A stretch of 64,000 nucleotides of DNA from Eledone cirrhosa. Its lineage: Eukaryota. The notes under the pieces were generated by a model. The model did not search any database. It worked only from the letters and a program-made list of their open reading frames with translations, and had not been told where the DNA came from. The position numbers were made by a program, and so were the translations under genes. The stretch covers positions 35,030,001 to 35,094,000 of the forward strand of contig OZ024747.1 of NCBI GenBank assembly GCA_964016885.1, written 5' to 3'. Positions within the stretch are counted from its first letter, which is position 1; each line of letters opens with the position of its first letter. This document shows, one piece after another, positions 597 through 58,044 of the stretch.

Positions 597-679
597 GGTT
601 ATATTTAATTTGTTGGGATACAACAAGCTAAAATATTTTCATAACTATATATAAAGCACTCAACAAATTATTGGAGTAA

Positions 680-1046
680 ATATACAATATATTAAAAAAA
701 TGGAAACTATATTTATAAAACCATATTTATTTCATTATAGATATTTCAATGGCCACCAATGTAGATTATGGTGCGCTTTCATCAGATAAAATATAATACA
801 GATTAGTTTTATAAATAAATATTGATATATCCTGAAAAAATGCAACCTTACCGGTTGGAGCTTCCTGGATGCTCCAACCGGTAAGGTTGCATTTTTTCAG
901 GATATATCAATATTTATTTATAAAACTAATTTGTATTATATTTTATCTGATGAAAGCGCACCATAATCTACATTGGTGGCCATTGAAATATCTATAATGA
1001 AATAAATATGGTTTTAAGAATATAGTTTCCATTTGTTAATATATTG

Positions 1047-1050
<4 letters not shown>
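680..1050. mobile_element. Fold-back (palindromic) non-coding PLE-terminus-like element between (TA)n tracts
   Basis: ~180-bp arms are near-perfect reverse complements around ccggttggagc-ttcctggat-gctccaaccgg (centre ~866). Each arm holds an HHR. A tail fragment recurs at ~54380-54430. Confidence 0.8.
939..1004 (+). ncRNA. Type I hammerhead ribozyme motif (mirror copy 728-793, minus strand)
   Basis: tattttat-CTGATGA-(helix II with cacca/tggtg)-GAAA-tatcta-TA-atgaaata; helix I is 8 bp. Confidence 0.7.
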
Positions 1051-1119
<69 letters not shown>

Positions 1120-10044: not shown

Positions 10045-10082
10045 CGAGCCGAAAATCCGCTAAGGTGAAACAATTGTTCTCG
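10045..10082 (+). ncRNA. Degenerate minimal HHR in a solo PLE terminal fragment
   Basis: cgag-CCGAAAA-tccgctaaggt-GAAA-caattg-TT-ctcg; homologous to 11907-11944. Confidence 0.5.
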
Positions 10083-10111
10083 GTATGGTGGACTAACTGT
10101 TGTGTTACCAC

Positions 10112-10151
<40 letters not shown>

Positions 10152-10153
<2 letters not shown>

Positions 10154-10406
10154 CAACCAGGTTTGATGGTCTTTATTCTCCCGTTCACGATTTCACCGAA
10201 CTTAAATTCATAGAAATCTGGGACTTGTCTCCTTCTTCCTCACTTTCTGTTGCTTCACCATTTTGTTTGTTTACCCTCGCGTCTCCTTTATTTACGTGTC
10301 CCAACGACATTTTTTAGCCGTTGCTCGCACCAACCGGAGGTATATGGTCTTTAAAGCGATGAACTGCCTATGATAGTTGGAAGATCACTGATGAAGGACA
10401 AACTTC

Positions 10407-10412
<6 letters not shown>
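10152..10412 (+). mobile_element. Family A non-coding unit (partial) with rearranged HHR at 10330-10412
   Basis: Near-identical to the reverse complement of 57296-57556. Flanked by (TA)n. GAAA is mutated to GAAC. Confidence 0.75.
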
Positions 10413-10456
<44 letters not shown>

Positions 10457-11028
10457 TATATATATGGAGGCTTGATTAAGAGTGTGTGTACACACGTCAC
10501 CCCTATTCAGCGGTTGCGTGTGTCTTTTTCTGAGTCGTAGTTTTGTAATTGATAGCTAAACAAGAAAAGTATATATAAGTAAGAATATAGAAAATAATAC
10601 CTTCCTTGTATACATATATATATAATTATATAAAATATATATTTTATTTTCTGCGTATTATACTTCTCACTTCATTATCCAACATAAAGTTTGTTTCGCT
10701 GTGGACCAGAAAATAAAATGACCATGAGCAATTTAATGTTTAAAATAGAATGGTGAATGAGAAAACGACTATATTCCTCGGTTTCATAGCCATCGATGTC
10801 GTTGTCATTCTCCTTATATTGGCCACTGTAACAATCATGTATGTTGTTGACATTGTAAAGGATTGAGAATTATTTGTTAGAGCGATTAATGAAATGCTAG
10901 CTACGTGGTTAGACAAATATACCTCATAGTGTAGTAATGTGTCTTGCTATATGCATATGTTTGAATGAATTAATAAACTTTGAGCGTGTTTATGCATCAA
11001 AATATATTCGTATGCGTTTATGAATGTT

Positions 11029-11906: not shown

Positions 11907-11944
11907 CGAGCTGAGGATCCGCTAAGTTGAAATAATTGTTCTTG
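11907..11944 (+). ncRNA. Minimal type I HHR in PLE 3' region
   Basis: cgag-CTGAGGA-tccgctaagtt-GAAA-taattg-TT-cttg. Confidence 0.65.
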
Positions 11945-11968
11945 GTATGGTGAAGTAACTGTGTAACC

Positions 11969-12087
<119 letters not shown>

Positions 12088-15849: not shown

Positions 15850-16752
15850 TGCTGATCAGCTAAACATACCCCTTTAAGAAAACCAACTGTACGAATAAGA
15901 AATGTTTTATATGTAGAATGAACACTCAAATAAATTGTAAAACTAGAAATGTAGTCTCTAGCATAAGATGTACAGGGGGAACTTGCAGAAACATGATAAA
16001 GACATACATAGGTAAGACAGCTCGAAGCATAGACCAACACTGGAGGGAACTAAAAGGACAAAAAGAAGATTCAGTACTATATGAATACGCCAGACAAAGA
16101 CATGAGGGTAATATAGACAACATAGAAAATAAAATAATATCTAAACATAGAAATGACCCAACAGGTAGGCAAATCAGAGAAGCAACTGAAATAGAACTAA
16201 GAAAACCAAAGTTGAATAGAAGAAAACGATGGAATAACAACAACAACCATACCCAAACACACAATACTGACCTAAGGTAAATATAAATAATTAAATACAG
16301 AAGTAATATAACAAACACACATAAACACACACTAGTGAACAAAGATAGACTACAAAACACACACACGCCAAACAGAAAACACACACGCAAACCCATGCGC
16401 AAGCAGAGGCAAGAATAAATTAATAAATAAACTAAAAATGGTGTAGACATTGCTATACAATGGGAGGAAACATGATAGTACCACTGACGAGGTCACAGAT
16501 GTGGGACAAAACCCATTGATAGAATATATATATATTTAAATCTGTATTTGTAACCATTGGTCAATCAATGATAAACATTGATTGGCAAATATATTAACTA
16601 TGGAGATATAAGAGATACAGAAGCGAAAACCAATCCAAACCAGACAGTGAGTGTGTTCTGCTATAATTTCTGTCAATATTATAACAATAATAACCGCACC
16701 GAATATAACAATAATTGTTTCAACACACGATTTCATATAAAAACCTTGCTAA
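15850..16752 (+). mobile_element. PLE 3' fragment (GIY-YIG plus terminal region), older relative of 26590-30156
   Basis: CKTRNVVSSIRC..YIGKTARS..RQIREATEI. Confidence 0.85.
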
Positions 16753-16814
16753 ACACACACACACACACACACACACACGTCCCCCCCCCTATATATATAT
16801 ATATATATATATAA

Positions 16815-17793
16815 AATGGCGAGCTGTGTGGTTGCAATTAAGTATAATGAAAAATAAAAGTTACGGGCGAAAGAGGGGAATATTCATCATCAGTTGTCTC
16901 TCGCCAACACTGCTACAGTGAAGACGTGTCTTTTTTCTCTCGTCAAACCCGCCAGTTCTTACGTTCGAAATGAGTTGTTGACTTGATATTTTTCCTATTT
17001 TTCCTATTTTTCCGCTCTTTACGTTGCTTCACCCTTCGTGTCTGTTTATATGTCCACCCCGCCCCTTTTTATCCCAATAACTTATTTTAGTTGTTGTTCG
17101 TCCTAGGCTGAGGTATCTTGTCTCTAACGCGAAGAAATACCTATGATTCCTAACAGACAACTGACGATGGATATTCCCCTCTTTCGCCCGTAACTTTTAT
17201 TTTTCATTATACTTAATTGCAAACACCCAGCTTGCCATTCATATAAGCTTCCTTCTCCGCTGTGACACGTCTGTTTTCTCTCCCCTTGTTGCTATCCTCT
17301 CTCTCCCCCTTATCTCTCCTTCTCCCTCTTACTTTCGCTCACCCCTTCTGCTAGTCACATTCTCTCGGCAACCTGCCACTATAACTCTCTCTTTCTTGCT
17401 TCCTCTTACTTTCTCTCACTCCCTCTCTGCTAGTAACCCTCTCTCCGCTAGCTCACTACCTCCCTCGTACACCACATTAAGCAGTCTCTTCTCTCGTTAA
17501 CACGGCTACAGTGAAGACGTCTCTTTTTTCTCTCATCAAACTCGCCCATTCTTACTTTCGAAATGAATTCTTGACTTGATATTTTTCTTATTTTTCCTCT
17601 CTTTACGTTGCTTCACCCTTCGTGTCTGTTTACATGTTTTTCTACCCCAGCCCTTTTTTTATCCCAATAACTTATTTTAGTTATTGTTCGCCCTAGGCTG
17701 AGGTATCTTATCACTAACGCGAAGAAATACCTATGATTCCTAGCAGACAACTGGCGATGGATATTCCCCTTTCGCCCGTAACTTTTATTTTTC

Positions 17794-17797
<4 letters not shown>
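16815..17797 (+). mobile_element. Family B non-coding partial tandem (period 590) with 83-bp inverted 5' arm; rearranged HHRs at 17103-17187 and 17693-17776
   Basis: 16897-17210 is repeated at 17488-17797. 16817-16899 is the reverse complement of 17155-17238. Flanked by (TA)n. Confidence 0.8.
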
Positions 17798-17850
<53 letters not shown>

Positions 17851-18513
17851 CTGCCCACTGAGAAATATCAGATATGTTTACATATATTTACTCTCTCTTG
17901 TCTGGCATATGATTAAACACAAAATGCTAGTACACCTACTCTAAAACTTTAAAGTCCGTCATATACATTTCGTTAAGGACTGTCTATCGGTTATGACAGC
18001 CTGAGTTTCTCAAACGATAAACATAAAAAACAATGAAATATTATTTTTAAAAGCCTTTTCAATTGGAAAAGGTTTATTTGTGTTGATGTAAGGGTCGCCG
18101 GACGAGTGATGTTATTTCCTCAACGGTCGGCCCCTGAGTGACCCTAAGTAGTCTGGCGAAATTTTTGGTCAGTTCTGGTTCCCTGTTTGTATCGATAGAT
18201 GCTTATCACAGGAAATACTGAAATCTGTTAGTCCCCCTCTATCGCCTCCTCCCTTTACACACAGACTGTCATATTAGTTGACAACTATCCCTCATCCCAA
18301 GCCAACACTATACTAGGGGTGACTGCTGAGCTTAGCAGTGGTGAACTGTTATATTCTCCCAGTACCACTTGTCGAGAAGCCTACGTCCCATTCAATATCT
18401 AACCATCAATTGGATACTTAAAAATATATATATATTGACTACTTAAGAAATATTTTTCAGCCAATAATTAATATATTAAAAAGTTAATTATTTAACTAAA
18501 TATAAAAAAAAAA

Positions 18514-18703
18514 AATTGTTTCTACGTTAGGCACAAGGCCAGCAATTATCCAGTGTATTACTGGTACTTTATTTTATCGACCCCGTAAGGATGAAAGGCA
18601 AAGTTAACCTCGGCGGGATTTGAACTCAGAATGGCAAGGGCTGTAACTCTATGCGTCAAAGCATGGCATCCGACCCTCTACCAATACTGCCAATCCACCG
18701 CCC
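18514..18703 (-). mobile_element. tRNA-derived SINE, full length
   Basis: Minus strand: ggcggtggattggcagtattggtagag..ctgagttcaaatcccgccgagg..gtagaaacaatt. Confidence 0.9.
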
Positions 18704-19074
18704 TTATATAAAAAAAAATAATAAAGTGAAATGTTGCACAAAAGGGGATGGGTACATGGGAAAGAGATTATAAAGAAAGTATTATTATAGTAGTTTTAGG
18801 TCTAATGTTTAAACTATATTTTTCTATAACTGTTCGCCACTGCTAAACCTAGCAGTCACACCTACTATAGCCTTGGCTTGTATATATTCATATTATCATC
18901 GACATGGCAAATTTCGTTTATGTCTATATGAATGATAATTGTTTCTAATTCAGGCACAGGCCCTGGGGAACGGAAAATCGAAGGCATAGTCAGGGTGGGG
19001 TATCTGTAGTTTTCTCATTAGTTCTGCATAGATATACTCCTTTTCACTAATCTTTGATATTATATTAGCAACTA

Positions 19075-19254
19075 GAATTGGCAGTATCGGTAGAGGGTCG
19101 GGCATGCTTTCCAGCATAGTTACGTCCTTTTACGATCTGAGTTCAAATCCCGCCGTGCTTAACGTTGCCTTTCATCCTTACAGGGTCGATAAAATAAAGT
19201 ACCGGTAATGTACTGGATTAATTGCTTGCCTTGTGCCAAAAGTAGGAACAATTA
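19075..19254 (+). mobile_element. tRNA-derived SINE, near full length
   Basis: Same family as 18514-18703. Confidence 0.9.
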
Positions 19255-19255
19255 T

Positions 19256-20290
19256 ATTAGCATCTACTGGGCAGCTAACTTCCACTACTATGCATACCAC
19301 TTTTTCCTATCCAATATCATTATATATGGTTTGTTATGCCTGCATTTTATTGTTTCTTTTTTTACTGGAACATTCCACCAGTACTCTTTTATATGTATAT
19401 GCACGTCTTCCACATTGCTGTAGGTTTTAATGTGTTTATTGTCGGGGCTATCCGTTCTACGGATTGCATTGTACAGTGTTTTGGCCACTACATCATGCCT
19501 CATAAGTAGTCCAATGATGGCATATTTAGACAGCTGCTTATGATATGGGTGACATCTTCAATGTTAATTCTGCAGAGTCTGCATTTGTTGTCACATCTAG
19601 GTGTTTTGCCTGCATCCCTATCTCTTTTGTGAATCAGGTATTTCATGTTGATTTTCTTTTCTTGGATTGCGAAAGCGTATGCTTCAAAGTGGGAGCCAAT
19701 ATAGCGATTGTTACTCCACTATAGACTACTTTGTTTTATCTATATTACTCTCACTCTGAACCTATCCATGTATGATTTTTTGCTGATAAGCATGCAGTTT
19801 TTCATTCATGTTTTCACTGCAGTACTGCAGGGCAATTTCCCTGGGTGTGAATTTTTGATTATCATGCAGGGAGTATCTTTCAAGGAGTTCCTTCCCAACT
19901 CTCATGAACGTATCTGTCTCATGCAGATATACTTGCTCAATAGATGGGTTCCTACGCTTCGAGATTCGTAGATGTTGTTGGAGGCATATGATGCGACACT
20001 CAGATCCCTCTGGACTGATGTTAGGCTTCTGCCTCCCTGGTTACATTTCAAGAAGAGGCAGTCTATTTCACTGTTGATGTGACAGTTTCCGGTGTTGTTT
20101 AGAATTTTTCGAGTTTTAACATCAATTGCTTGGATTTCATATAACGTCCAATCAAGTATTCCAAACGTTCGTATTAGGATAGACACAGCAAACCCATTGT
20201 GAGCCATTATATTATTGTGTGCAGAGTTCCGATGACCATAATATTCATAATCGGGTGTAATATTCCGTGGTTACGCATTCCTTATTACAA
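19256..20290 (-). pseudogene. R4/Dong-like non-LTR retrotransposon C-terminal fragment (post-RT region, CCHC finger, restriction-like endonuclease)
   Basis: FGILDWT..IDVKTRKIL..GGRSL, CRLC..EDVTHIISSC, RHDVVAK, WWNVPV..HNKP. Confidence 0.85.
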
Positions 20291-26573: not shown

Positions 26574-27187
26574 TATATATGTGTGTATATATAGCGGCGA
26601 TGAATTAGTTTTGCGAGGTTTTTTATATGAAATCGTGTGTCGAAACAGATATTGTTATATTTGGGGAGGGTCATATTTGCGTAATATTGCCAGAATTAAT
26701 AACAGAACACACTCACTGTTTGGTTGGTTTTCGCTTCTCGCTGTCTTTTATATATATATATCTGCGATCTAACTTACTCGGTCCTCAATGTTGCCATTGA
26801 CTGACCGGCGGTCAAAAATAATACAGATACAATATAGACACAAACACATATATGTAGTTTACATAATTTACATAAATCTTTCGTTGCACATCTGCAACAT
26901 CGTCAGTGGTGTTATATTCATTGTTCCTCCTGTTGTGTTGTATGTCTACGCCATTTTTTTTTTTTTGTTCAGTCTGTCTATATATTTATTTATTTATTTG
27001 CTTGTTTGTTTATCTTATTTTATGTTGTCTTCTTTGCGCATGCGTTTGCGTGTGTGTATAGTGTTATGTGTGATGTGTGACTAGTGTGTATAGTGTTGTG
27101 TCTGCTGGGTGACTAGTGTGTGTTTATGTGCTTGTGTATGTATTTATTTATCTTATTTTATTTAATTTTATTTACTTATTTATACTT

Positions 27188-27779
27188 CTCTTAGGTCAGT
27201 GTTGTTTGTTTGGGTGTTGTTGTTGTTCCACTCATTCTTTCTGTTTAGCTTTGGTCTTCTAATTTCTATTTCACTGGCCTCTCTGATTTGCCTATCTGCT
27301 GGGTCATTCCTATGTTTAGATATTATTCTAATTTCTATGTTGTATATGTTACCGTCATGTTGTTGTCTAGCATGTTCGTATAGTACTGACCCGTTTTTTT
27401 CGTCCTTTTAGTTCCCCCCAGTGTTGGTCTATCCTTTCACCTATGCTACGAGCTGTCTCACCTATGTATGTTGTTGTCATGTTTCTGCAAGTACCCTCTG
27501 TACATCTTATGCTATAGACTACGTTTCTAGTTTTACAGTTTATCCGGGGGTTCACCTTACAAATGATACATTTCCTATTGGTACAGTGGGTTTTCTTAAA
27601 AGGGTAGGTTTTGCTGATCAGGGATTTTATGGTGGTTCCTGGCTTTTCTACCACCTTTATTTTTAAGTGGGTCTTTCTCAGGGCCTTTCTACACTGGTTA
27701 GCTAATTTCCCTCCAGGGGTGGCGTCCACAAACATGACACTCTGTTATCTCTGGTTGTCGTACCATGATGTGACCTTCC
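27188..27779 (-). pseudogene. PLE linker and GIY-YIG endonuclease (frameshifted)
   Basis: MFVDATPGGKLA..CTNRKCIIC..NVVYSIRC..YIGETARSIGER. Confidence 0.9.
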
Positions 27780-28973
27780 CTATCTTATTCTAGCCCTATC
27801 TAAGCTATTCCATGATTTGCTCCTGTATAGTGGGCAAATTCCTTTCATGTCCAGTTCTATGAGGGTCTTATACTTTTCCATGGCTCCTTCGTATACTCTG
27901 ACTCTGTCTCTTTGGTTGTAGCCAGAGAACTGTCTGCGGTTGATGAAGTGTTGGATGTGTCCTTCCATTTCTGTTGGGTCGCACATGCTGGACACATTCT
28001 TCATCACTCGTACCAAATCTGCGATCAGAATATTAAACTTAGCACTACTGGACATTGCTGAGTTTTTGAGTATCAGGTATTTGGAGGCCATGGGTTTAGC
28101 ATAGTGTGAGTGGAGAATTTGGGCTCTCTCGTCTATAGTGTTAATCCAGAGTTCTGTGTCTAATACAGGTAGTCTATTGTTAGGGTGTTTGGAAGGGAAG
28201 TCTATAGTTACAGTTATACTCTGGTGTATGGAATTAGCTATCTGCTGGATGCTTTCCATCGTGCTACGTTCTAAATCAAACTTGTTAGTGCTCTCTAGTG
28301 GGGGTGTTCTTATAACTATATTGATATCGTCTACATAACGAGAGTACATGATGAGGTCTATGGAGCTTTCATTAAGGAGATCTTTAAGTCTCCTTTCCCA
28401 CCATACCATGAAAAGTTTGGCAACATCACCAGCTATGCTGACGCCGATGGCTGCTCCCTCATTTTGGGTGTAGATTTTCTCATTGAACTTAAATATGTGG
28501 CCCTTTAGGGTAGTTTTGATACTAGCCCCTATTGCATGTGCGACCATTTTTCTTACCTGATCAGTGTTTTGGGGGGTCCGTATAGCTTTGGTCCACCCAA
28601 TCCACCTTCCTATGGGAGTCTTTTTAGCCATTGAGGTTATGGTGGGGGGTCTACCTCTTATAGGTCTACTAGGGCAGAAACATCTAAGGTCATTGCTGTC
28701 TAGGTAGTCAGTGTCGTAGGTAAGTCTAAGTAGGAGGCCCAGTTCGTCTGTGTCGACGTCGCAGAACTCCACCTCACTCTCAATGATCATCTCCACACAT
28801 CTTTTCACAGCAAAATCAATGTTAATGGATGGGTACAGTGACACCACATCCATGCTGCCTATTATGCAGTTGGATAGGCTCCTGTTTTTGTTGCACTCAC
28901 TGATTCTGCTGAGGAGGTCCTCTGTACTTTCACATACATCTGGGGACATCTTGATTATGGGGCGTATAACCAT
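27780..28973 (-). CDS. PLE reverse transcriptase (397-aa open segment of a disrupted ORF)
   Basis: IGSMDVVSLYPSI, QNEGAAIGVSIAG, YSRYVDD, LPVLDTELW, HYAKPMAS. Confidence 0.92.
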   Translation of the reverse strand: MVIRPIIKMSPDVCESTEDLLSRISECNKNRSLSNCIIGSMDVVSLYPSINIDFAVKRCVEMIIESEVEFCDVDTDELGLLLRLTYDTDYLDSNDLRCFCPSRPIRGRPPTITSMAKKTPIGRWIGWTKAIRTPQNTDQVRKMVAHAIGASIKTTLKGHIFKFNEKIYTQNEGAAIGVSIAGDVAKLFMVWWERRLKDLLNESSIDLIMYSRYVDDINIVIRTPPLESTNKFDLERSTMESIQQIANSIHQSITVTIDFPSKHPNNRLPVLDTELWINTIDERAQILHSHYAKPMASKYLILKNSAMSSSAKFNILIADLVRVMKNVSSMCDPTEMEGHIQHFINRRQFSGYNQRDRVRVYEGAMEKYKTLIELDMKGICPLYRSKSWNSLDRARIR

Positions 28974-30152
28974 TGAGAGGAAGTAGGAGATCCTGTAGTT
29001 GCTAGCTATATTAGCTCCGCATACGGGTCTTGTTGGTGGTCCTGTTGTCGGGTCGTCGACTGTCTTGTGGGCTTTGCGGAGCCCATACAGGGTGGTATGC
29101 CATTGTTAGACGCCTGGAAGTTGTTGGCAGTGCGGCTGCTTGGCTTTAGGATGTCAGTCCACATCATCATGTGAGCGTTGAGGATTTTTTCTCTCCCATC
29201 GTGTGTTAGTTGTGCAACTTCGCTCGTGTTGGTGATGTGGGGTTGCATTGCCTCGATGTAGTTCGGCATGCTATCTATTGACGTACAGAGGGTACTTGCA
29301 GATGTACAGAGGGTACTTGCAGAAACATGACAACAACATACATAGGTGAGACAGCTCGTAGCATAGGTGAAAGGATAGACCAACACTGGGGGGAACTAAA
29401 AGGACGAAAAAACGGGTCAGTACTATACGAACATGCTAGACAACAACATGACGGTAACATAGACAACATAGAAATTAGAATAATATCTAAACATAGGAAT
29501 GACCCAGCAGATAGGCAAATCAGAGAGGCCAGTGAAATAGAAATTAGAAGACCAAAGCTAAACAGAAAGAATGAGTGGAACAACAACAACACCCAAACAA
29601 ACAATACTGACCTAAGAGAAGTATAAATAAGTAAATACAATTAAATAAAATAAGATAAATAAATACATACACAAGCACATAAACACACACTAGTCACTCA
29701 GCAGACACAACACTATACACACTAGTCACACATCACACATAACACTATACACACACGCAAACGCATGCGCAAAGAAGACAAAATAAAATAAGATAAACAA
29801 ACAAGCAAATAAATAAATAAATATATAGACAGACTGAACAAAAAAAAAAAATGGCGTAGACATACAACACAACAGGAGGAACAATGAATATAACACCACT
29901 GACGACGTTGCAGATGTGCAACGAAAGATTTATGTAAATTATGTAAACTACATATATGTGTTTGTGTCTATATTGTATCTGTATTATTTTTGACCGCCGG
30001 TCAGTCAATGGCAACATTGAGGACCGAGTAAGTTAGATCGCAGATATATATATATAAAAGACAGCGAGAAGCGAAAACCAACCAAACAGTGAGTGTGTTC
30101 TGTTATTAATTCTGGCAATATTACGCAAATATGACCCTCCCCAAATATAACA

Positions 30153-30221
<69 letters not shown>

Positions 30222-31672: not shown

Positions 31673-31685
31673 TATATATATATAT

Positions 31686-34600
31686 GAAAAAGTATGATCC
31701 CGACGGCAGAGCTCAAGCCGTTTCGAGGGCGATTTCTGGACTAAATTAGAATTGTTAGCCTGGTGAATAAATAGCCGTACTTGTCAAGAGGGTACTTCCT
31801 TATATGGGAAGATTGTAGTTGTCAAGAGGATTGGTTAAAATATGTTGTAAACACAAATAAGTCAATCATGGCATTTTGTTGGGAGGTAGGGGTGGCTGAA
31901 ATTGCCTGTAGAACAATAGGGGTGTGAGTGGAGCGGCCGAGCATTGAAGGTAATGTATATACAGCAGATTCTAAGGATAATGTATCAAGTCGAAGAGGGA
32001 GGTTATAGAATAGGTAAATCGAATGAGAGTAGGAGACAATAAAAGATAATAGAAAGAAATAAAAAAATATATAAAATTAGATAGTGAGAAATGAATAAGA
32101 AAATATCACAATGCTATCTTACAATTACAGGTTAATAAGTTAAGAATAGAAAAACACTTGTAGAATGAGTAGTAACAAAATTGATACAAAATTAAAGGGA
32201 TTTTAACACATCTGCTATAAGTAGTTAGTAAAACGTATTCGGCCAATTCTATATTAAAATTACAGGGATTGGGGAACTGATGCCAGAGAGACCCGATGGG
32301 CTGCATCGTGGTAGGCGAAAGGGGAAAAACAGACGAGGAGGGAGAAAGGGGGTGGAAGGAAGTGATAGGATGAGAGAGAGGGGAAAATAAGACAACCCTA
32401 TGCTCTCACCCTTCGAGAACGACCCTTTTCCACCTGGTCAAGAACATTAAATTCAAACCCAGACACAACAGATTCCTACACCAACTCCCTAACAAAATAA
32501 CAGAGTATGAAAACACCAACAATATCATGGTGCACTCGGACAAAACTGGAAACCTCTACTTCGTCAACCCTGACAGATACCACACACTGATCAGGGGCAG
32601 CCTAATCTCCCCCTATAAAAAGGCTAACCATTCAATTATCGAGGACATAAATCGAGATGGACAACAAATTACATCCAGCCTGGGTGTCGCCGACCGCACT
32701 GAACCTCTAGACCCACGGACCCCTTACTTCACACTGAAGGAGCATAAATCCGACGGACCGTAAACCATCCATGATCCGAAGTCGGACATAGGGAGAATCA
32801 GTAAAAAGATCCTAGACTGAGTTATACCAAAAGTTAAGCAAAACGTGAGTCTTAGCCTCTGGGTCAGCACCCAGGAAGTAATCTTATGGTTCAGGAACAT
32901 GGAGGTCAAACGAGACACACAATTCATCCAGTTTGACATAAAGAGTTGCAATGCATCTATTACCTTTGATTTTGCCGAAACACTCAAACCCATCACTGAG
33001 CAGGAAAGAAATATCATTCTCCACGCCAGGAAGACAGTCCTACTTTTCGACAACTCTAATTCGATAAAGAGAGCTCCCGATTCCCCCTTCGACGTCAGTA
33101 TAGGCGCGACGAATTCGGCCGAGGTCACAGATATTTAGAGGATTATTCCTACTATTTAAACTCACCAAAATGTTTCCTGCATTCGGCGATGGATTGTACC
33201 GGGATGATGAGCTCCTCACCCTCAAAGGGTACAACGCCAGTAATACAGACCGGGTCCGTAAACAACTAATCAACTTCTTCTGGGACTGGAGATTTAAAAT
33301 CACCCTACAAACGCCCCTAACCCGAGTCAATTTCCTGGACGTTACTCTTAACGTCGAAAATGATCTGTACTACCCATACAAGAAAACAAACGTCAACCTG
33401 CACTACATCCACCGCCGCTCTAACCATCCTAGAAACATCACCAATAACCTGGTTAAAAACATCTCCCTCTGCATATCTCGTTTGTCCGCTAATGAGCAGA
33501 TATTCGACGAACATGCGCCTCATTACAACCAGGCCCTCATGCGGAGTGGCTTCCGGGAGGAAATATCCTTTTATCCAGCTTCCATTAGCGGATCCAGCAG
33601 GCGACACCACCGCTCACGCAACGTATCGTGGTTCAATCCTCCCCATAATGCCGAGGTGGCAACACCTATCGGGAACATCTTATTTAGACTCCTCGAAAAA
33701 CACTTCCCACTACAACACCGCTACCACAACATAATCAACAAAAATACCATCAAACTCTCCTACAGCACCACACCTAACTTCGCACAAAACATCGTCTCCT
33801 CAAACAACGAAAAACTTAACCCCTATGGGAGAAATAACCTAGATATCAGTGGAGAGTCGACCAGGAGGTGTAAGTGCCCTGATAGATTTACGTTCCCGCT
33901 CAACACCAAATGCCGAGAACGTAACGTGATCTAGCAGTGCAACGTGAGGACGGACACTTCCAACAAAGCTTATATAGGATTAACCGCGTGTGACTTCAAG
34001 ATCCGGCTCTACCAACACCGACATACTTTTCAAAACCCGGTCCGGCGATATGCCACTACACTTTCGGGCCACATTTGGGACCTCCACGATAATAATATAA
34101 CCTACAATCTCACTCGGAGCTTACTGTCCAGAGCTAACTCTTACACGGGAGGACGCCGTCTGTGTAACCTATGCTCGGAGGAAACATTACAAATGATATT
34201 TTCGAAGGACCAACTCCTAAACAAGAAAGACGAACTGGTAACCGCATGCAAACAGATTTTGTAGGACTTACCTCGCCCTCAAACCCATAACGACCCGGGT
34301 GGGTAGACAAAGGTTGATAACCCCCCACTAGCCGAATAAGTTAGGGGAACCCCAACTTATATAGGTAGATGTATGTCTTTTTTTTCCCTTTGTATTCTTT
34401 TTCCCCCTGTCTCATCCTATCACTTCCTTCCACCCCTTATTTTCCTCCTCGTCTGCTTTCTCCTCTCGCCTTCACCGATGCAGCCCATCGGGTCTCTGTA
34501 GCATCAGTTTCCCCACCCCTGTAATTTTAAGATAGAATTGGCCGAATACGTTTTACTAACTACTTATAGCAGATGTGTTAAAATCCCTTTAATTTTGTAT

Positions 34601-35175
34601 CAGTTTCGTTACTACTCATTCTAGAAGTTTTTTCTATTCTCAACTTATTAACCAGTAATTGTAAAGTAGCATTGTGATTTTTTTTTTCATTTCTCACTAT
34701 CTAATTTTATATATTTTTTATTTCTTTCTATTATCTTTTATTGTCTTTCTACTCTCATTCGATTTACCTATTATATAACCCCCCTCCTCCACTTCATACA
34801 CTATCCTTAGAATCTGCTGTATACATATCACCTTCAACGCTTGACCGGTCCACTCACTCCCCTATTGTTCTACAGGCAAGTTCAGCCACCCCTACTTCCC
34901 AACAAATGCCATGATTGTCTTATTTGTGTTTACAACAAATTTTAACCAATCCTCTTGACAACTACAATCTTCCCATATAAAGAAGTACCCCTTGACAAGT
35001 TCGGCTATTTATTCACCAGGCTAACAATTCTAATTTAGTCCAGAAATCGCCCTCGAAACGGCTTGAGCTCTGCCGTCGGTGTCATACTTTTTCCTATTTC
35101 CCACTCTAATGCCCTAAGTATTGAGTACTCTGGTGCGTTATGTTCCATCTGGTTCCTTACCACAATTCTTTTGTT
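31686..35175 (+). mobile_element. Penelope-like element (Naiad-like) with ~700-bp inverted terminal arms; decayed RT and GIY-YIG at 32398-34300
   Basis: SDKTGNLY, FIQFDI, GLYRDD, VNFLDVTL, SNHP, WFNPP, IKLSYS, YIGLTACDFKIR, CNLCSEE. 31686-32395 is approximately the reverse complement of 34390-35093. Confidence 0.95.
34987..35082 (+). ncRNA. HHR with compensatory C3U/G8A core (mirror copy 31697-31793, minus strand)
   Basis: acccc-TTGACAA-(~56 nt)-GAAA-cggc ttgagctct gccg-TC-ggtgt. Confidence 0.65.
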
Positions 35176-37314: not shown

Positions 37315-37349
<35 letters not shown>

Positions 37350-37867
37350 CAGGAAAGAAGGTTTACATGGTTTGCTATACAAAAAAGTTTTTAATCACAT
37401 AGCTTACATTTGTTTCACTGAACTGGTATGTCTAGAGATCGCTATCCGCCTAATTTTGCGTCACTCGATCGCCAATACAGAATTATAACCAGTCAGATCT
37501 TCGGAGCATGCGAGAATGAAGAAAATACACAGGCAAGAAAATAAAAGAAAATATGGAGTAGTTATGGCATTCAATTAGAACAATAAACAACAACAATTAT
37601 TACAACAATGCTATCAATAAACTATTTAAGGAGACCCTGACATTACTTAGGTGGGGGGTATATAATGTATCTAATGTTACGGCGTGAAAACCAGCTGTCA
37701 TAAGGCAAAAAGTATCGTAGTGTGTATCAATTTTAAATTATAAAGATAAGCTAGTTTTTACAGTCTTTCTCTTCATCTTCAACCGTATACATGAGTGGGA
37801 CCACTGTCAAAGCTCAATAGTTGTAGAGTTAATACAGAGGTTAACGAATTAATATACGCATATATCT

Positions 37868-37930
<63 letters not shown>

Positions 37931-38285
37931 AATATAAATACATATACACATATATGTGTACATAGACACATACATACACACTAATATACACTCGTACAAA
38001 AATATACATACATGCAAAGAGGAAAGCGTGCTAATTGTAATATGGCAAAAAGAAGGTAAAGTAACATTGTAGTAGTGAAATGAGAAAAACTAGGATCTAG
38101 GATCAAATGATTGCAGCAGCTGAGAAGGAGTAAGATTGTTGGTAGATGAGGTATTTACAGACTATTGTGTGGTATAGACTTGTGAAGGAAATAGTATACT
38201 TAATGAATATATATATTTTTTTTTTTTTTTTTTTTTTTGTAGGTAGTAGGTATCCTAATTTAAAGCTATGTTATGTTGGTTCGAT

Positions 38286-38735
38286 TCACGGAGGTTTGAA
38301 TCTTATGAATTTAGTGGCTATTCTATGCCTGCAGAAGATAGATCTTTCTAACTTATTATTAAGTAGTCTTTTAACATTTCTAAGGATATACAATAGCTCA
38401 AGATCACACAGCCCGCAATAGGACATACCTGTACTATAGGTTTTAGCAGCCGACAACTTCGACCAGTTGATAGTGTAGCTAGCGTTGCTGTCCTTCAATT
38501 CCCATATTTTTCTGGCGAGGGTGGTGGAACCCATAAGAGCTCGGTTTTTCATCGAGTGCCTGTGCACATACCATCTTTTCTTAAAAGAACCCGCGGTGGA
38601 TCCTATGTAATTCCAAGTGGAGTTACCCGAGATGACAGTGCACATGTACACCAGACTCGAATCGAGACATCTATTCGCCAATGGGCACCTATCTGGTCTG
38701 GTGTACATGTGCACTGTCATCTCGGGTAACTCCAC
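38286..38735 (-). CDS. PLE GIY-YIG endonuclease fragment (left arm)
   Basis: RCPLANRCLDSSLVYMC..NYIGSTAGSFKKRWYVH..CGLCDLE..CRH. Confidence 0.85.
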   Translation of the reverse strand: MELPEMTVHMYTRPDRCPLANRCLDSSLVYMCTVISGNSTWNYIGSTAGSFKKRWYVHRHSMKNRALMGSTTLARKIWELKDSNASYTINWSKLSAAKTYSTGMSYCGLCDLELLYILRNVKRLLNNKLERSIFCRHRIATKFIRFKPP

Positions 38736-39066
38736 TTGGAATTACATAGGATCCACCGCGGGTTCTTTTAAGAAAAGATGGTATGTGCACAGGCACTCGA
38801 TGAAAAACCGAGCTCTTATGGGTTCCACCACCCTCGCCAGAAAAATATGGGAATTGAAGGACAGCAACGCTAGCTACACTATCAACTGGTCGAAGTTGTC
38901 GGCTGCTAAAACCTATAGTACAGGTATGTCCTATTGCGGGCTGTGTGATCTTGAGCTATTGTATATCCTTAGAAATGTTAAAAGACTACTTAATAATAAG
39001 TTAGAAAGATCTATCTTCTGCAGGCATAGAATAGCCACTAAATTCATAAGATTCAAATCTCCGTGA
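38617..39066 (+). CDS. PLE GIY-YIG endonuclease fragment (right arm, mirror ORF)
   Basis: Same peptide from LVYMC onward, differing at one residue near the C-terminus; the N-terminus is antisense-derived. Confidence 0.8.
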   Translation: MELPEMTVHMYTRLESRHLFANGHLSGLVYMCTVISGNSTWNYIGSTAGSFKKRWYVHRHSMKNRALMGSTTLARKIWELKDSNASYTINWSKLSAAKTYSTGMSYCGLCDLELLYILRNVKRLLNNKLERSIFCRHRIATKFIRFKSP

Positions 39067-39113
39067 ATCGAACCAACATAACATAGCTTTAAATTAGGAT
39101 ACCTACTACCTAC

Positions 39114-39145
<32 letters not shown>

Positions 39146-39424
39146 TATTCATTAAGTATACTATTTCCTTCACAAGTCTATACCACACAATAGTCTGTAA
39201 ATACCTCATCTACCAACAATCTTACTCCTTCTCAGCTGCTGCAATCATTTGATCCTAGATCCTAGTTTTTCTCATTTCACTACTACAATGTTACTTTACC
39301 TTCTTTTTGCCATATTACAATTAGCACGCTTTTCTCTTTGCATGTATGTATATTTTTGTACGAGTGTATATTAGTGTGTATGTATGTGTCTATGTACACA
39401 TATATGTGTATATGTATTTATATT

Positions 39425-39491
<67 letters not shown>

Positions 39492-39846
39492 AGATATATG
39501 CGTATATTAATTCGTTAACCTCTGTATTAACTCTACAACTATTGAGCTTTGACAGTGGTCCCACTCATGTATACGGTTGAAGATGAAGAGAAAGACTGTA
39601 AAAACTAGCTTATCTTTATAATTTAAAATTGATACACACTACGATACTTTTTGCCTTATGACAGCTGGTTTTCACGCCGTAACATTAGATACATTATATA
39701 CCCCCCACCTAAGTAATGTCAGGGTCTCCTTAAATAGTTTATTGATAGCATTGTTGTAATAATTGTTGTTGTTTATTGTTCTAATTGAATGCCATAACTA
39801 CTCCATATTTTCTTTTATTTTCTTGCCTGTGTATTTTCTTCATTCT

Positions 39847-39963
39847 CGCATGCTCCGAAGATCTGACTGGTTATAATTCTGTATTGGCGATCGAGTGACG
39901 CAAAATTAGGCGGATAGCGATCTCTAGACATACCAGTTCAGTGAAACAAATGTAAGCTATGTG
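39847..39963 (+). ncRNA. HHR, U4C variant with 81-nt helix II region (mirror copy 37396-37512, minus strand)
   Basis: cgcatgct-CCGAAGA-tctgactggt..accagttcagt-GAAA-caaatg-TA-agctatgtg. Confidence 0.65.
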
Positions 39964-40183
39964 ATTAAAAACTTTTTTGTATAGCAAACCATGTAAACCT
40001 TCTTTCCTGATTTATTATTACTCCAAGGGTTTACAACATAGGAATTACAGCATACCCGCAGCATCACTATGAAAACGCCTTGTTGAGTCAAACCAAGCCA
40101 AGCGTTAATATCATCCACTACCTGGAATACCATAACTGGACTTCACCTAAGTGGACTGCATTTAACTATTATTTGTTAATCCG

Positions 40184-42340: not shown

Positions 42341-44128
42341 TTCTATGTATCCATGTATTTCTACTCCTCCTACTGAGACTTTTGCTCACTTCTACCCATT
42401 AGCACACGACACTAGAATGTCTCCCCCTGAGAACAAAAATAAATATTACCCGACTATATCCCTTACTCTACATACCACTAGGATAACTTATAGAACATCT
42501 ACATAATACAATTAACGTTTCTTCATAAAAGACTCTCTTTAACTAAACCCCGCAACCCAAAACCTTAAAACAGTTTTTTAAATGTTTAATTTTCAATTTT
42601 CTATTTGTTCAATTCTCAATCTTCTTACTCTTTAATTTTATGATGTTATTCTGAATTCTTTCAACTTCATCCTATAAATGTAAACAATATTTTAACGTTC
42701 CAACTTTCTGTCAGACTGTTGGATTGGTTTTCATGGCGGCGGGACCGGCCCCCTGGCGCATAGGCCTACCTTGAGTGCTTGGAAAAATAAATTTCCCCTT
42801 CTTTCGGTAAATGAAACTACTCGGAGTGGCTTGATTCACCCCAGGGGCCCGGCATGCAGCCGGTTTTTTAACCGCCATATAGTACCTTTAAATTACAGAT
42901 CAAATCAGAACTATTAGATATATCACGCCTCCCTTTACTTAAGCAAATCCCCCTCCTGGGTAAAGGAATATTACTGGTTTTGTACAAAAATGGCCTAACG
43001 ATGCGGGCTGACTTCCTGCTGGCGCACCTGAAGCCTGTTATACATTCCTAGAGTGCTCGTTAAAATCGATGTCCATATCTTTCGCTAGGCGATATCACTC
43101 GGAGTGATGGGCTGCTCAAGCTTGTAGTCGCCGCATGCTGTTTGACGGCTAAACAAAGACATAATCTTTACTCTATAATAAAATTTAAGTGTCTTCATAA
43201 AAAACTCTTTCTTTGCTTAAACCTCACAACCTTAAACATGTTAAACTATTTAACTTTAAATTTTCTAATTTCTTTAATTTTATAATGTTAATATTAAATA
43301 TTAATTTTTTAACTTCATCCTATAAGTCTAAACAAAAATGTAACGTTCCAATCTTCTGCTCACACATTGACCCCCACTATATTGACCTCTGCTAAGATAC
43401 GGGTCCCTTTGAAAATATTTTGTTCGCGCCATTCCTGGCCTGACTATAGTCTGACATTAATATCGACCTTCCTCCCTCTTTCTTTCTATCTTTCTTCTTG
43501 TAGCCATCAACCCTGACTTTCTGCTTCTTCCTTTTCTGCCTTCTCTTCTCCCTTATTTCTGTTTTTCTCCTTGTGGCATGATATTAACGCTGACTTATCT
43601 TACTTCCCCTTTTTCTTTGCCTATATTTGACCGGTAGTAGTTGTTAAGATACGTGTCCCATAGAATAAAAAGAATTTCGCGACATTCCCGGCCTGACTGT
43701 AATACCGACCTTTCCTCCTCTTTCTTTCTGTCTTTCTTCTTATAGCTGACATTAACCTGGCTTCTCTTCTTCTTCCTTCCCCCTTCTTCTCTCTTCTTTC
43801 TTTCTTTCTTTCTTTTTTTTTTTGTGGCATGATATTAACGCTAACTTATGTTCCTATCCCTTTCTGTTTTCCTTTATTTGACCGGTAGTAGCACACTATA
43901 AGCTTTAGCCACGTCACTCCAGGGCGACCGGCAAATGTAGAAGATGCTGGATGGCGGTCGTCCTCGGGTCTCTGATTTTCAGCCCCATGGATTTTATCTA
44001 TTACATTCGCTTATTATATTTCGGATACCTGATGATATCACCGGATTCATACGTAACCCCGTCATTGAAATGATCATAGTATAATAAACCTTTCAAGGAT
44101 TTACACAAATCCAACCTCCTGTCATTTC
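42341..44128 (+). mobile_element. Family C non-coding element (second copy) ending in a complete HHR
   Basis: Homologous to ~12700-14015. Internal ~250-bp tandem duplication at 43394-43890. Confidence 0.7.
44025..44082 (+). ncRNA. Type I HHR of family C
   Basis: atac-CTGATGA-(31 nt)-GAAA-tgatca-TA-gtat; palindromic helix III. Confidence 0.7.
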
Positions 44129-47070: not shown

Positions 47071-47081
47071 TATATATATAT

Positions 47082-47205
47082 ACGTGTCCCAACGACTTTC
47101 TTTAGGCGTTGCTCACACCAACCGGAGGTATATGGTCTTTAAAGCGAAGAAATACCGATGATGGTTGGAAGATCACTGATGAAGGACCACTTTATTCATA
47201 TGTAT
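47082..47205 (+). mobile_element. Family A fragment with core-intact rearranged HHR at 47118-47199
   Basis: ccaacc gg aggtaTA tggtctt taaagcgaa GAAAtacc gatgat ggttgg aagatca CTGATGA. Confidence 0.75.
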
Positions 47206-47271
47206 ACATACATATACATGGTTTCCAAACGCGTCTTGCTACCAACACTGTTGTTATGACTACCTCATACT

Positions 47272-51268: not shown

Positions 51269-51955
51269 TATGAGTGACACCACTCGCGAGATCGCTGCAT
51301 CTGTTTTTGATTTGCGCGATCTCGTTCGTGATGTATCCTCTTTTGGCACTGTTAGGGAGGGCGGACTTGTAGTGAACGAATAGGTCCCTGCAGGCTGCCT
51401 TTCGGTAGAAGTTGCAGTGGATCCTTCCCTGTTCCGTGATGTTGATTCGGAAGTCGAGGAGGGCAAGTGACCTGTCTTCGTTGGAGTGTTCAACACTGAA
51501 CTCAATGTTCTCGTCCGTGTTGTTGAACGTCTCATAGATTCTGTTCGCCGTGTCTTGGGAAGGTGTGAGGATGAGAATATCGTCCACGTACCTTGAGAAA
51601 AAGGCTACGGCGTTGGGGTGGCAGGCGTTGAGTGCCTTGCGTTCGAGGTTGTCCATGTAAGAGATCGCTAGCACACCTGATAGGCTTGATCCCATGGGCA
51701 ATACCGAGGTTTGTTGGTATATTTGGTCAAGGAATCCGAAGTAGGTGTTGTCGACGACGATGGATAGGAGTTGGTGGATGTCAGTGGTGGTGAGCCCGAA
51801 GCAGTGTAGGTCGGTGGATTGGACGCGTTCCATTAGTATATTGACGGCCGGGAGTGCCGGGACCGAGGTGTAGAGAGCGACTACATCAAGGCTGAAGGCA
51901 TATCTGTTATTCCTTCTGGTGTCGGGATCCATTTGATGCAGGCGCTTCAACACCT
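51269..51955 (-). pseudogene. PLE reverse transcriptase core fragment
   Basis: FSLDVVALYTSV, LPMGSSLSG, FSRYVDDIL, LALLD, FYRK..HYKSALP. Confidence 0.9.
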
Positions 51956-52007
51956 CCTATATATATATATGTATGTGTGTTTGTATGCAAGCACAGACAC
52001 AATCAGC

Positions 52008-57236: not shown

Positions 57237-57256
57237 TAAATATATATATATATATA

Positions 57257-57981
57257 TGATAATAAGGGCGCTGCGGAGTTGCAAATGGATTACATATGAA
57301 ACAAGTTTGTCCTTCATCAGTGATCTTCCAACTATCATAGGCATTTCATCGCTTTAAAAACCATATACCTCCGGTTGGTGCGAGCAACGGCTAAAAAAAG
57401 TCGTTGGGACACGTAAATAAAGGGGACGCAAGGGTAAACAAACAAAATGGTGAGGCAACAGAAAGTGAGGAAGAAGGAGACAAGTCCCAGATTTCTATGA
57501 ATTTAAGTTCGGTGAAATCGTGAACGAGAGAATAAAGACCATCAAACCTGGTTGAAATGTGAGCAAGGAAGGAATTTCGCACAGGTCTAACGGGAGGAAG
57601 AAGGGGTCTGGTCTGCGAATTCGGTAAACATAAGTTCTGTGAAATCGTAGACGAGAGAGAAAAAATTCCGACCAGCTTGGCCGAGAATGTGAGAGAAAAG
57701 AGTTACTCACAGGTCAAACGGGAAGAAAGAGGAGGAGGAGGATAGGTAGTGACAGAGAATGAGTGAGTGAAGGGTGAGGTGAGGAAGAGGCTAACAGAGA
57801 GAGAGACTGCTAGAAAGGGTAAAGATACATAGAACGAAAAAGACGGTGTAGCAGCAGAGGAAAAAATATGTGTAAATATGATAATAAGGGCGCTGCGGAG
57901 TTGCAAATGGGTTACATATGAAAAAAATTGTCCTTCATCAGTGATCTTCCAACTATCATAGGCATTTCATCGCTTTAAAAA

Positions 57982-57984
<3 letters not shown>
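57257..57984 (-). mobile_element. Family A element: 621-nt unit plus 107-nt terminal redundancy; rearranged HHR at 57296-57378
   Basis: 57257-57363 is repeated at 57878-57984. Non-coding, with (TA)n on both sides. Confidence 0.85.

Positions 57985-58044
<60 letters not shown>

What the first reader, a model, noticed from the sequence alone, without database searches (positions are those of the whole stretch)
16815..17797. Sister family B: 590-nt tandem with the same rearranged ribozyme and a PLE-style inverted 5' arm
Seen: two ribozyme copies lie 590 nt apart, and the body looks largely unlike family A outside the motif. An 83-bp inverted arm ends in helix I (reads gagacaaCTGATGA on minus). 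Inference: conservation concentrated in the motif argues for selection on structure. The inversion links these non-coding units to the same integration mechanism as the coding PLEs in this window.
Basis: partly seen in the sequence, partly recalled or inferred. Interest (0 to 1): 0.7.

Follow-up and report, generated by a model that had tools for sequence, protein, structure and literature searches.

The report
Scrambled hammerhead in Penelope-type jumping repeat
This is one copy of a protein-less repeat scattered through an animal genome in the pattern that Penelope-like retrotransposons leave, and each unit carries the parts of a hammerhead RNA in a scrambled order that likely folds into a self-cutting ribozyme, which would explain why a group of such transposons was thought to lack one; cutting is untested.

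Summary
Confirmed, with corrections. Window 16815-17799 is one insertion of a dispersed non-coding repeat (family B, unit about 590 nt): 1.5 units plus an 85-nt inverted arm in (TA)n. Copy 1 has an intact hammerhead core in S-G-C order; copy 2 is mutated in core and helix I. The S-G-C pattern occurs 12,499 times genome-wide (0 reversed). Across 15 copies of several families, 16 of 31 proposed pairs show double changes (0/500 shuffles). The fold differs from published type-SGC: helix II is one covarying pair, clamped by an upstream strand, and helix III continues through a K-turn-like loop. A/B raw identity peaks only weakly (73% vs 65%); covariation, not identity, supports selection. Copies end at two fixed 3' sites; 43 of 46 inverted pairs (A+B) use one of each, the Penelope 'tail' pattern. 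B 5' ends thin out at the predicted cut (p=3e-4); A does not show this. Three published Naiad tails show the same order by eye, but I found no intact Naiad here, so the mobilising partner is open. The scan noted this ribozyme before, in this genome and others.

The parts
16815..17799 (.). Whole family B insertion: inverted arm plus 1.5 tandem units, (TA)n at both outer ends
16815..16899 (-). Inverted 5' arm: unit offsets +38 to +122 from the predicted cut; holds helix I 3' strand, CTGATGA (16893-16887), the first 3' site and the tail to the second 3' site
16897..16899 (.). 3-nt overlap (microhomology) at the head-to-head junction
   Evidence: 15 of 29 B junctions overlap by 1-12 nt
16897..17799 (+). 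Forward segment, 903 nt, 5'-truncated, ending at the first (proximal) 3' site
17071..17172 (+). Ribozyme-like fold, copy 1, core intact; three departures from the family majority (17093, 17101, 17153), none in the core
17071..17101 (+). Upstream clamp: Pa 5' strand 17071-74 (pairs 17169-72), hairpin H 17075-96, Pb 5' strand 17098-101 (pairs 17129-32)
   Evidence: Pa and H also in the nested minimum-energy fold
17103..17111 (+). 5' strand of the distal helix III extension (17103-07) and the GA-bearing strand of the K-turn-like loop (17108-11)
17112..17123 (+). Block S: helix III 5' strand, U-C triplet end, predicted cut between 17117 and 17118, helix I 5' strand
   Evidence: cut site inferred from hammerhead rules
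17133..17141 (+). Block G: position 11.1 (17133), GAAA (17134-37), helix III 3' strand
17142..17153 (+). 3-nt bulge, GA, two mismatches and 3' strand of the distal extension (K-turn-like)
17155..17168 (+). Block C: helix I 3' strand, CTGACGA (17161-67), position 10.1 (17168)
17205..17245 (+). Two preferred 3' end sites of the family (17211; 17239/17245) and the tail between them, inferred start sites of reverse transcription
17246..17660 (+). Pyrimidine-rich non-coding body with an internal 77-nt duplication; longest ATG-started frame in the B unit 27 aa
17661..17762 (+). Ribozyme-like fold, copy 2, likely inactive (changes at 17710, 17713, 17754)
57244..57988 (-). Family A insertion used for comparison; its 5' end joins (TA)n at the predicted cut site (with TA microhomology)
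10150..10465 (+). Family A copy, 5'-truncated
47077..47219 (+). Family A-related copy

Best explanation
Family B is a dispersed, protein-less tandem repeat whose copies show the Penelope-type insertion pattern, and each unit carries hammerhead core words in S-G-C order inside a covarying fold that likely acts as a self-cutting ribozyme. Shown: two fixed 3' ends in (TA)n, variable 5' ends, up to 1.6 units, head-to-head arms, covariation. Inferred steps: (1) a multi-unit or circular RNA is made; (2) each unit folds with helices I and III, a one-pair helix II held by an upstream clamp in a four-way junction, and a K-turn-like bend that would bring the helix III extension back towards helix I; it would cut after position 17117, incompletely; (3) a PLE enzyme working in trans would cut (TA)n and start reverse transcription at two adjacent sites 94 and 122/128 nt past the cut; (4) when both DNA ends prime, one at each site, the two cDNAs would join head-to-head by microhomology, giving the inverted arm with the tail on one side only, as here. 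The fold is likely of Naiad origin; the enzyme that moved B and A is not identified.
For: S-G-C pattern 12,499 vs 0 reversed; helix I pairs at 5-6 of 6 positions in 30 of 31 position-ordered genomic matches vs 3 of 170 viral and metagenome matches. 16 of 31 pairs with double changes, 96.8% of cells paired, 0/500 shuffles, slid controls 26-46%; 10.1-11.1 pair in 12 of 14 rows, four pair types; other helix III letters in further families (131 vs 1 control). 135 of 159 B segments end at one of two sites, 110 of the 135 into (TA)n; mixed use of the two sites in 26 of 29 B and 17 of 17 A inverted pairs (p 7e-6, 7e-7). The coding PLE structures of the window show the same one-sided tail. Frangieh 2024 (PMC11167929) found two adjacent internal start sites and cutting of both strands for a PLE in vitro. 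B 5' ends: 23 in 2556 nt just 3' of the predicted cut vs 3 in 2071 nt just 5' of it (p=3e-4; best step at -2 to 0). S-G-C order read by eye in 3 of 6 published Naiad 3' ends.
Against: No cleavage assay. Helix II is a single pair, unlike tested type-SGC ribozymes. Covariation counts use related sequences and a structure drawn from them, so the shuffle test is not a probability. The 5'-end step is absent in family A (10/3175 vs 6/2889, p=0.29) and in B comes mostly from inverted arms (17 vs 1; non-inverted 6 vs 2, p=0.20); only 3 B ends fall exactly at -1/0. Many copies run through one or two predicted cut sites, so the template is often uncut or re-joined. The nested minimum-energy fold of both window copies pairs the clamp strand with the CUGANGA block, an inactive alternative. 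No S-G-C tail behind any of 23 Naiad remnants in this genome, and no intact Naiad.
Confidence: 0.76

Rival explanations
1. The fold is real but not catalytic, or nearly so: it serves as the recognition structure for the PLE enzyme next to the start sites, and the hammerhead words are a relic.
For: No step at the cut in family A; many copies pass the site; in Frangieh 2024 ribozyme mutants did not reduce insertion and no RNA ends were found at the cut; one-pair helix II.
Against: CUGANGA, GAAA and U-H stay fixed while helix letters change across families and in published Naiads; the B step lies at the predicted cut, not at the edge of the structure.
Confidence: 0.12
2. Cutting happens only between two units or two RNAs (strand exchange in the tandem), not in the single-unit knot.
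For: Axolotl retrozyme hammerheads cut better as dimers (PMC7229834, passages); the route from helix III back to helix I is geometrically demanding.
Against: Four further helices (Pa, H, Pb, the distal extension) tie all three blocks of one unit together; H and the distal extension covary strongly, Pa and Pb weakly (1 of 4 pairs each); no palindromic helix III loop is present.
Confidence: 0.09
3. The tandem and the inverted arm arose by local DNA duplication or repair, not by reverse transcription.
For: Units within one locus are somewhat more alike than between loci (6.5-6.7 vs 9.3 differences per 100 nt in B), which conversion could also give.
Against: Dispersed copies with two fixed 3' ends, ragged 5' ends, (TA)n targets and one-of-each site use in 43 of 46 inverted pairs.
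Confidence: 0.03

Closest known systems
Type-SGC hammerhead ribozymes (HRIMA-1 and variant; Eckert et al. 2023, PMC10085705)
   Same: Block order S-G-C; full core CUGANGA, GAAA, U-H; crossing helices I, II, III.
   Different: Helix II is one pair plus a clamped junction instead of a continuous stem; helix III has a K-turn-like or bulged extension; no stem like the paper's I-II interaction; found in an animal retroelement, while in the parts read the paper reports metatranscriptome-associated examples; cleavage untested here.
Non-LTR retrozymes of animals (Cervera and de la Pena 2020, PMC7229834; Li, Clavereau, Pollet 2026, 10.64898/2026.07.22.740005)
   Same: Non-coding tandem units with one hammerhead each; proposed non-autonomous partners of PLEs; unit length within the 51-972 bp reported.
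   Different: Those carry type I hammerheads; here S-G-C. Mostly 1-2 units with inversions and tails rather than long arrays; circular RNA not shown.
Naiad PLEs (Craig et al. 2021, PMC8557442)
   Same: (TA)n targets, partial tandems, inverted 5' copy, 30-40-bp tail at one end; 3 of 6 published 3' ends seen have S-G-C order, and Naiad_Ovul has the same hairpin loop and K-turn-like loop.
   Different: No ORF; no sequence link to a coding Naiad in this genome, whose Naiads are old remnants while family A is about 1.4% diverged.
Poseidon PAc mechanism (Frangieh et al. 2024, PMC11167929)
   Same: Two adjacent internal start sites, AT-rich targets, both strands cut and extended.
   Different: PAc is autonomous with a canonical-order hammerhead; one-of-each site use in inverted arms is not described in the parts read.

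Membership tests
Hammerhead ribozyme | Core CUGANGA, GAAA, U-H | tested here: met
   Copy 1 intact; 48 of 68 whole B cores and 80 of 87 A cores intact (part of the A core was fixed by the search pattern)
Hammerhead ribozyme | Helices I and III flanking the core | tested here: met
   Helix I 5 of 6 pairs with double change; helix III 100% paired, other letters in other families
Hammerhead ribozyme | Helix II stem | tested here: inconclusive
   One covarying pair (12 of 14 rows) followed by a clamped junction
Hammerhead ribozyme | Self-cleavage after U-H | not testable with these tools
   No assay; indirect 5'-end step in B only
Type-SGC hammerhead (Eckert 2023) | 5'-3' block order S, G, C | tested here: met
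Type-SGC hammerhead (Eckert 2023) | Continuous multi-pair stem II and a stem joining the far sides of stems I and II | tested here: not met
   After 10.1-11.1 the two strands pair with an upstream strand, not with each other; the paper's figures were not seen
Non-LTR retrozyme | Non-coding tandem units, one hammerhead per unit | tested here: met
Non-LTR retrozyme | Type I (C-G-S) hammerhead | tested here: not met
   Order is S-G-C; six-order scan of the window gave no C-G-S fold in the unit
Non-LTR retrozyme | Linear and circular monomer RNA in cells | not testable with these tools
   No RNA run available
PLE-type insertion (Craig 2021) | 5' truncation, partial tandem, inverted 5' copy, tail at one end, microsatellite target | tested here: met
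Autonomous PLE / Naiad | RT and GIY-YIG ORF | tested here: not met
   Longest stop-free frame in the B unit 89 aa, longest from ATG 27 aa
Non-autonomous Naiad derivative | 3' end shared with a coding Naiad of the same genome | tested here: inconclusive
   0 of 23 remnants with the fold or with A/B similarity; remnants about 70-80% alike; same layout in 3 of 6 published tails by eye
K-turn | 3-nt bulge followed by G.A and A.G pairs between two helices (PMC4382518) | tested here: met
   GA after a 3-nt bulge in 15 of 15 rows, GA on the other strand in 14 of 15; flanking helices paired; absent in two other families
K-turn | Kinked geometry, L7Ae/15.5K binding | not testable with these tools
   sequence only

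The most novel reading that the evidence does not exclude
An active, knotted hammerhead of a new build (S-G-C order, one-pair helix II clamped in a four-way junction, K-turn bend that could be switched on by the host 15.5K/SNU13 protein) is the unrecognised ribozyme of Naiads. It has outlived its Naiad parent in this genome on more than 12,000 non-coding copies that were moved by other PLE enzymes, and these enzymes prime the two DNA ends at two different fixed sites, one each.
Probability: 0.3. Interest if true: 0.88.

Novelty: new variant of a known kind. Interest (0 to 1): 0.72.

Why it matters
Non-circularly permuted hammerheads were reported as rare environmental RNAs; here the order is in more than 12,000 places in one animal genome, in a build that standard descriptors miss. 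If it cuts, the statement that Naiads lack hammerheads needs revising, and retrozyme counts based on type I descriptors are too low. The one-of-each use of two start sites in 43 of 46 inverted pairs gives a testable account of why PLE insertions have inverted arms with a tail on one side. Family B matters as the divergent sister that supplies many of the compensatory changes.

Tried and rejected
Rfam scan of the window: no ribozyme family among 97 matches to E=1, nearly all microsatellite noise. Standard hammerhead order inside the unit: not found. A continuous helix II between the strands after CUGANGA and before GAAA: rejected, only the first pair holds. Pairing of 11.1 with the upstream strand instead of 10.1 ('opened core'): 2 of 15 rows by column, 4 if two gapped rows are shifted by eye, vs 12 of 14 for 10.1-11.1; by eye it fits Naiad_Ovul better and both fit family G. 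Sequencing runs: no RNA holder listed; contigs of one sample, possibly the source, hold an exact 290-nt piece 17329-17618, not independent support. Circle vs linear multimer: within-locus sharing of variants is modestly raised (B 1.6 and 0.9 vs 0.5 per 100 nt; A 0.5 and 0.4 vs 0.3), not decisive; short-short arm pairs are not enriched (p=1.0). Pairs of motifs 2.6-3.3 kb apart were not coding elements. Partner search: Naiad RT motif patterns gave 3 and 0 matches; protein searches gave 78 and 52 matches, none with an open frame above 321 aa (123 of 123 and 148 of 4753 candidates scored). No Naiad RT lay upstream of 21 loci of families H and I and related motifs. A strict descriptor found no fold in 11 PLE end regions of the window; it also missed the visible C-then-G core at 29899, so it is weak. 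Viral and metagenome pattern matches look like chance. No Pol III B-box in either unit.

Full report
Observation. The window holds at 16815-17799 a forward segment of 903 nt (16897-17799, 1.5 units) and an inverted arm of 85 nt (16815-16899), overlapping by 3 nt, with (TA)n outside both ends. The motif repeats at 590 nt. Copy 1 keeps the whole core. Copy 2 has two helix I changes and one core change, and the arm holds only the CUGANGA block. Rfam gives no ribozyme match. The genome is about 3.0 billion bases.

The motif. A scan for all six block orders finds three S-G-C matches in the window, at 17116-17167 and in two family A copies, and one C-G-S match elsewhere without helix II. S-G-C is the non-circular order named type SGC by Eckert et al. 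2023 (PMC10085705; I read the outline, parts 3-4 of 8, sections 4 and 13, part 1 of section 18, and five supplement passages; no figures). A pattern for this order matches 12,499 times in the genome and 0 times read backwards. A version demanding G or C at 10.1 and 11.1 matches 1,011 times, and one with other helix III letters 131 times against 1. Helix I, which the pattern leaves free, pairs at 5-6 of 6 positions in 30 of 31 position-ordered genomic matches, and in 3 of 170 viral and metagenome matches. Family B is a minor member: a B-specific 19-mer occurs 184 times.

The fold. I aligned 15 natural copies chosen by hand to span the families and named a structure. From 5' to 3': Pa, hairpin H, Pb, distal extension, GA strand, helix III, U-H, helix I, linker, Pb partner, 11.1, GAAA, helix III partner, 3-nt bulge, GA, extension partner, helix I partner, CUGANGA, 10.1, Pa partner. 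Of 31 pairs, 16 show changes on both sides; 96.8% of cells pair; none of 500 shuffles reaches this; slid controls pair 26-46%. The evidence is strongest for helix I (5 of 6 pairs), H (5 of 7) and the extension (4 of 5), weak for Pa and Pb (1 of 4 each); helix III is nearly invariant in this set. The sequences are related and the structure was drawn from them, so these are not probabilities. Helix II is one pair, formed in 12 of 14 rows in four types. Its two strands then pair with the upstream strand, which makes a four-way junction with H. The loop in the helix III extension fits the K-turn definition of McPhee et al. 2014 (PMC4382518, part 1 of 4 read): GA after a 3-nt bulge in 15 of 15 rows and GA opposite in 14 of 15. 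Other families replace it with a plain bulge or lack H. Energy minimisation without pseudoknots recovers Pa, H, helix III and the extension, but in both window copies it also pairs the clamp strand with the core.

Majority units of A and B are 78/107 identical in the fold and about 65% in the body. The body figure is near what composition gives (11 and 20 of 200 shuffles reach it), and fold vs body is not significant (p=0.14). Across 9 units of A-like families, 56 of 107 fold columns match B, against 31 of 180 and 37 of 233 in the body. Among B copies picked by the 3' end, core letters differ at 3.7%, the rest of the fold at 4.4%, the body at 7.1%; 4 of 107 fold columns and 38 of 411 body columns vary as subfamilies. 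So lineages keep the fold, and single copies decay.

How copies are built. I mapped 118 B loci (30 ranked by identity, 88 taken from the first 100 of 184 listed places) and 100 A loci. Of 159 B segments, 135 end at offset +94 or +122/128 from the predicted cut, 110 of them in (TA)n; 32 exceed one unit, the longest 955 nt. Of 114 A segments (3 cut by a locus edge were dropped), 107 end at +73 or +120; the longest is 1,378 nt. 73 of 135 B and 41 of 107 A segments touch a head-to-head partner. Where both outer ends lie at a site, one arm uses the near site and the other the far site in 26 of 29 B and 17 of 17 A pairs; the window's insertion is of this kind. Four other inverted structures of the window, three of them around PLE reading frames, show one arm with a tail and one without. 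Craig et al. 2021 (PMC8557442; 12 passages and supplement parts 1, 24, 25 read) list these features for PLEs. Frangieh et al. 2024 (PMC11167929; parts 1-2 of 4) showed two adjacent internal start sites and extension of both strands. The simplest reading, inferred, is that both DNA ends prime, one at each site, and the cDNAs join by microhomology.

A footprint of cutting? Six segments that continue after an indel were censored. The best step among 40 positions tried lies at -2 to 0. Against this, the signal comes mostly from inverted arms (17 vs 1), only 3 ends sit exactly at -1/0, and A shows no step (10 vs 6, p=0.29); three A ends at -4 cannot be told from 0 because of TA overlap. This is suggestive only.

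The partner. Earlier notes of the scan pointed to Naiads, which Craig et al. report as lacking canonical hammerheads. Of 6 published 3' ends that I read, 3 (Naiad_Ovul, the record before it, Naiad_Esco) show S-G-C order with paired helices I and III, by eye. Naiad_Ovul also shows the clamp, the same hairpin loop and the K-turn-like loop; there 10.1-11.1 does not pair. In this genome Naiad-type RT occurs only as remnants with stops, none above 321 aa of open frame. Their relatives have an N-terminal GIY-YIG (2 of 5 tested). None of 23 remnant loci has the fold. Family A is about 1.4% and B 4-7% from its majority, similar to arm divergences of 1-11% in the window's other inverted PLE-type structures. 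So the fold is likely of Naiad origin, while the enzyme that moved these copies is either an undetected Naiad or another PLE; I put these about even.

Comparison and novelty. It works like a non-LTR retrozyme (PMC7229834, 12 passages; preprint 10.64898/2026.07.22.740005, parts 1-3 of 5, supplements not seen) but fails the type I criterion. It has type-SGC order but not that family's continuous helix II, so I do not file it under either. Searches listed no paper describing an S-G-C or K-turn-bearing hammerhead in animal retroelements; 'type-SGC' returned only Eckert 2023; the library lacks most subscription papers. Hammerhead position numbers and the Kt naming of loop positions are from recall where no call gives them. 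The scan has noted this ribozyme many times in this genome and others; those notes are not independent evidence. One look-up found no note on the paired use of start sites.

Verdict. A real, abundant, new variant: probability about 0.76 for the mechanism as stated, interest 0.72.

Noticed in passing
window 15852-16754: Decayed PLE end just left of the finding, 71-76% like the PLE at 26608-30160; family B sits in the microsatellite at its 3' end. It carries CTGACGA at 16484 followed by a hairpin.
   Followed up: partly
window 26645-30160: Young PLE with 863-nt inverted arms (99%), RT frame 27780-29105 on minus, core in C-then-G order at 29899 and 26906; the helix I partner seems to lie upstream, so the order may be S-C-G.
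   Followed up: no
window 37344-40015: Almost perfect 2.7-kb palindrome (98%) of a PLE 3' part with GIY-YIG-like frames at 38286-38741 and 38611-39066; tail on one arm only.
   Followed up: partly
window 31682-35097: PLE with 715-nt inverted arms (91%), about the age of family B; no hammerhead core word found in its arms.
   Followed up: partly
window 677-1054; 43915-44100; 10045-10115 and 11907-11974: Other hammerhead-like cores in C-then-G order in PLE ends, some with a palindromic helix III loop.
   Followed up: no
L159-L176 (family G), L557-L571 (family H), L574-L576 (family I): Older non-coding families with S-G-C order and different helix III letters; G and I have a plain bulge instead of the K-turn-like loop, H lacks hairpin H.
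   Followed up: partly
L229 and L233: Two B copies share a deletion that joins the two strands of helix Pb and removes the cut site, which looks like a template jump across the folded helix.
   Followed up: no
L070, L087 (family D): The K-turn-like loop has U instead of G at the 2n position, as I recall for the non-standard Kt-23.
   Followed up: no
window 18486-18711, 19077-19257 and other places: A short interspersed repeat in several copies, here as an inverted pair 469 nt apart.
   Followed up: no
window 48721-49173 and 50928-51383: Helitron-like helicase fragments (by recall of motifs), with a PLE RT frame on the opposite strand at 51234-51956.
   Followed up: no
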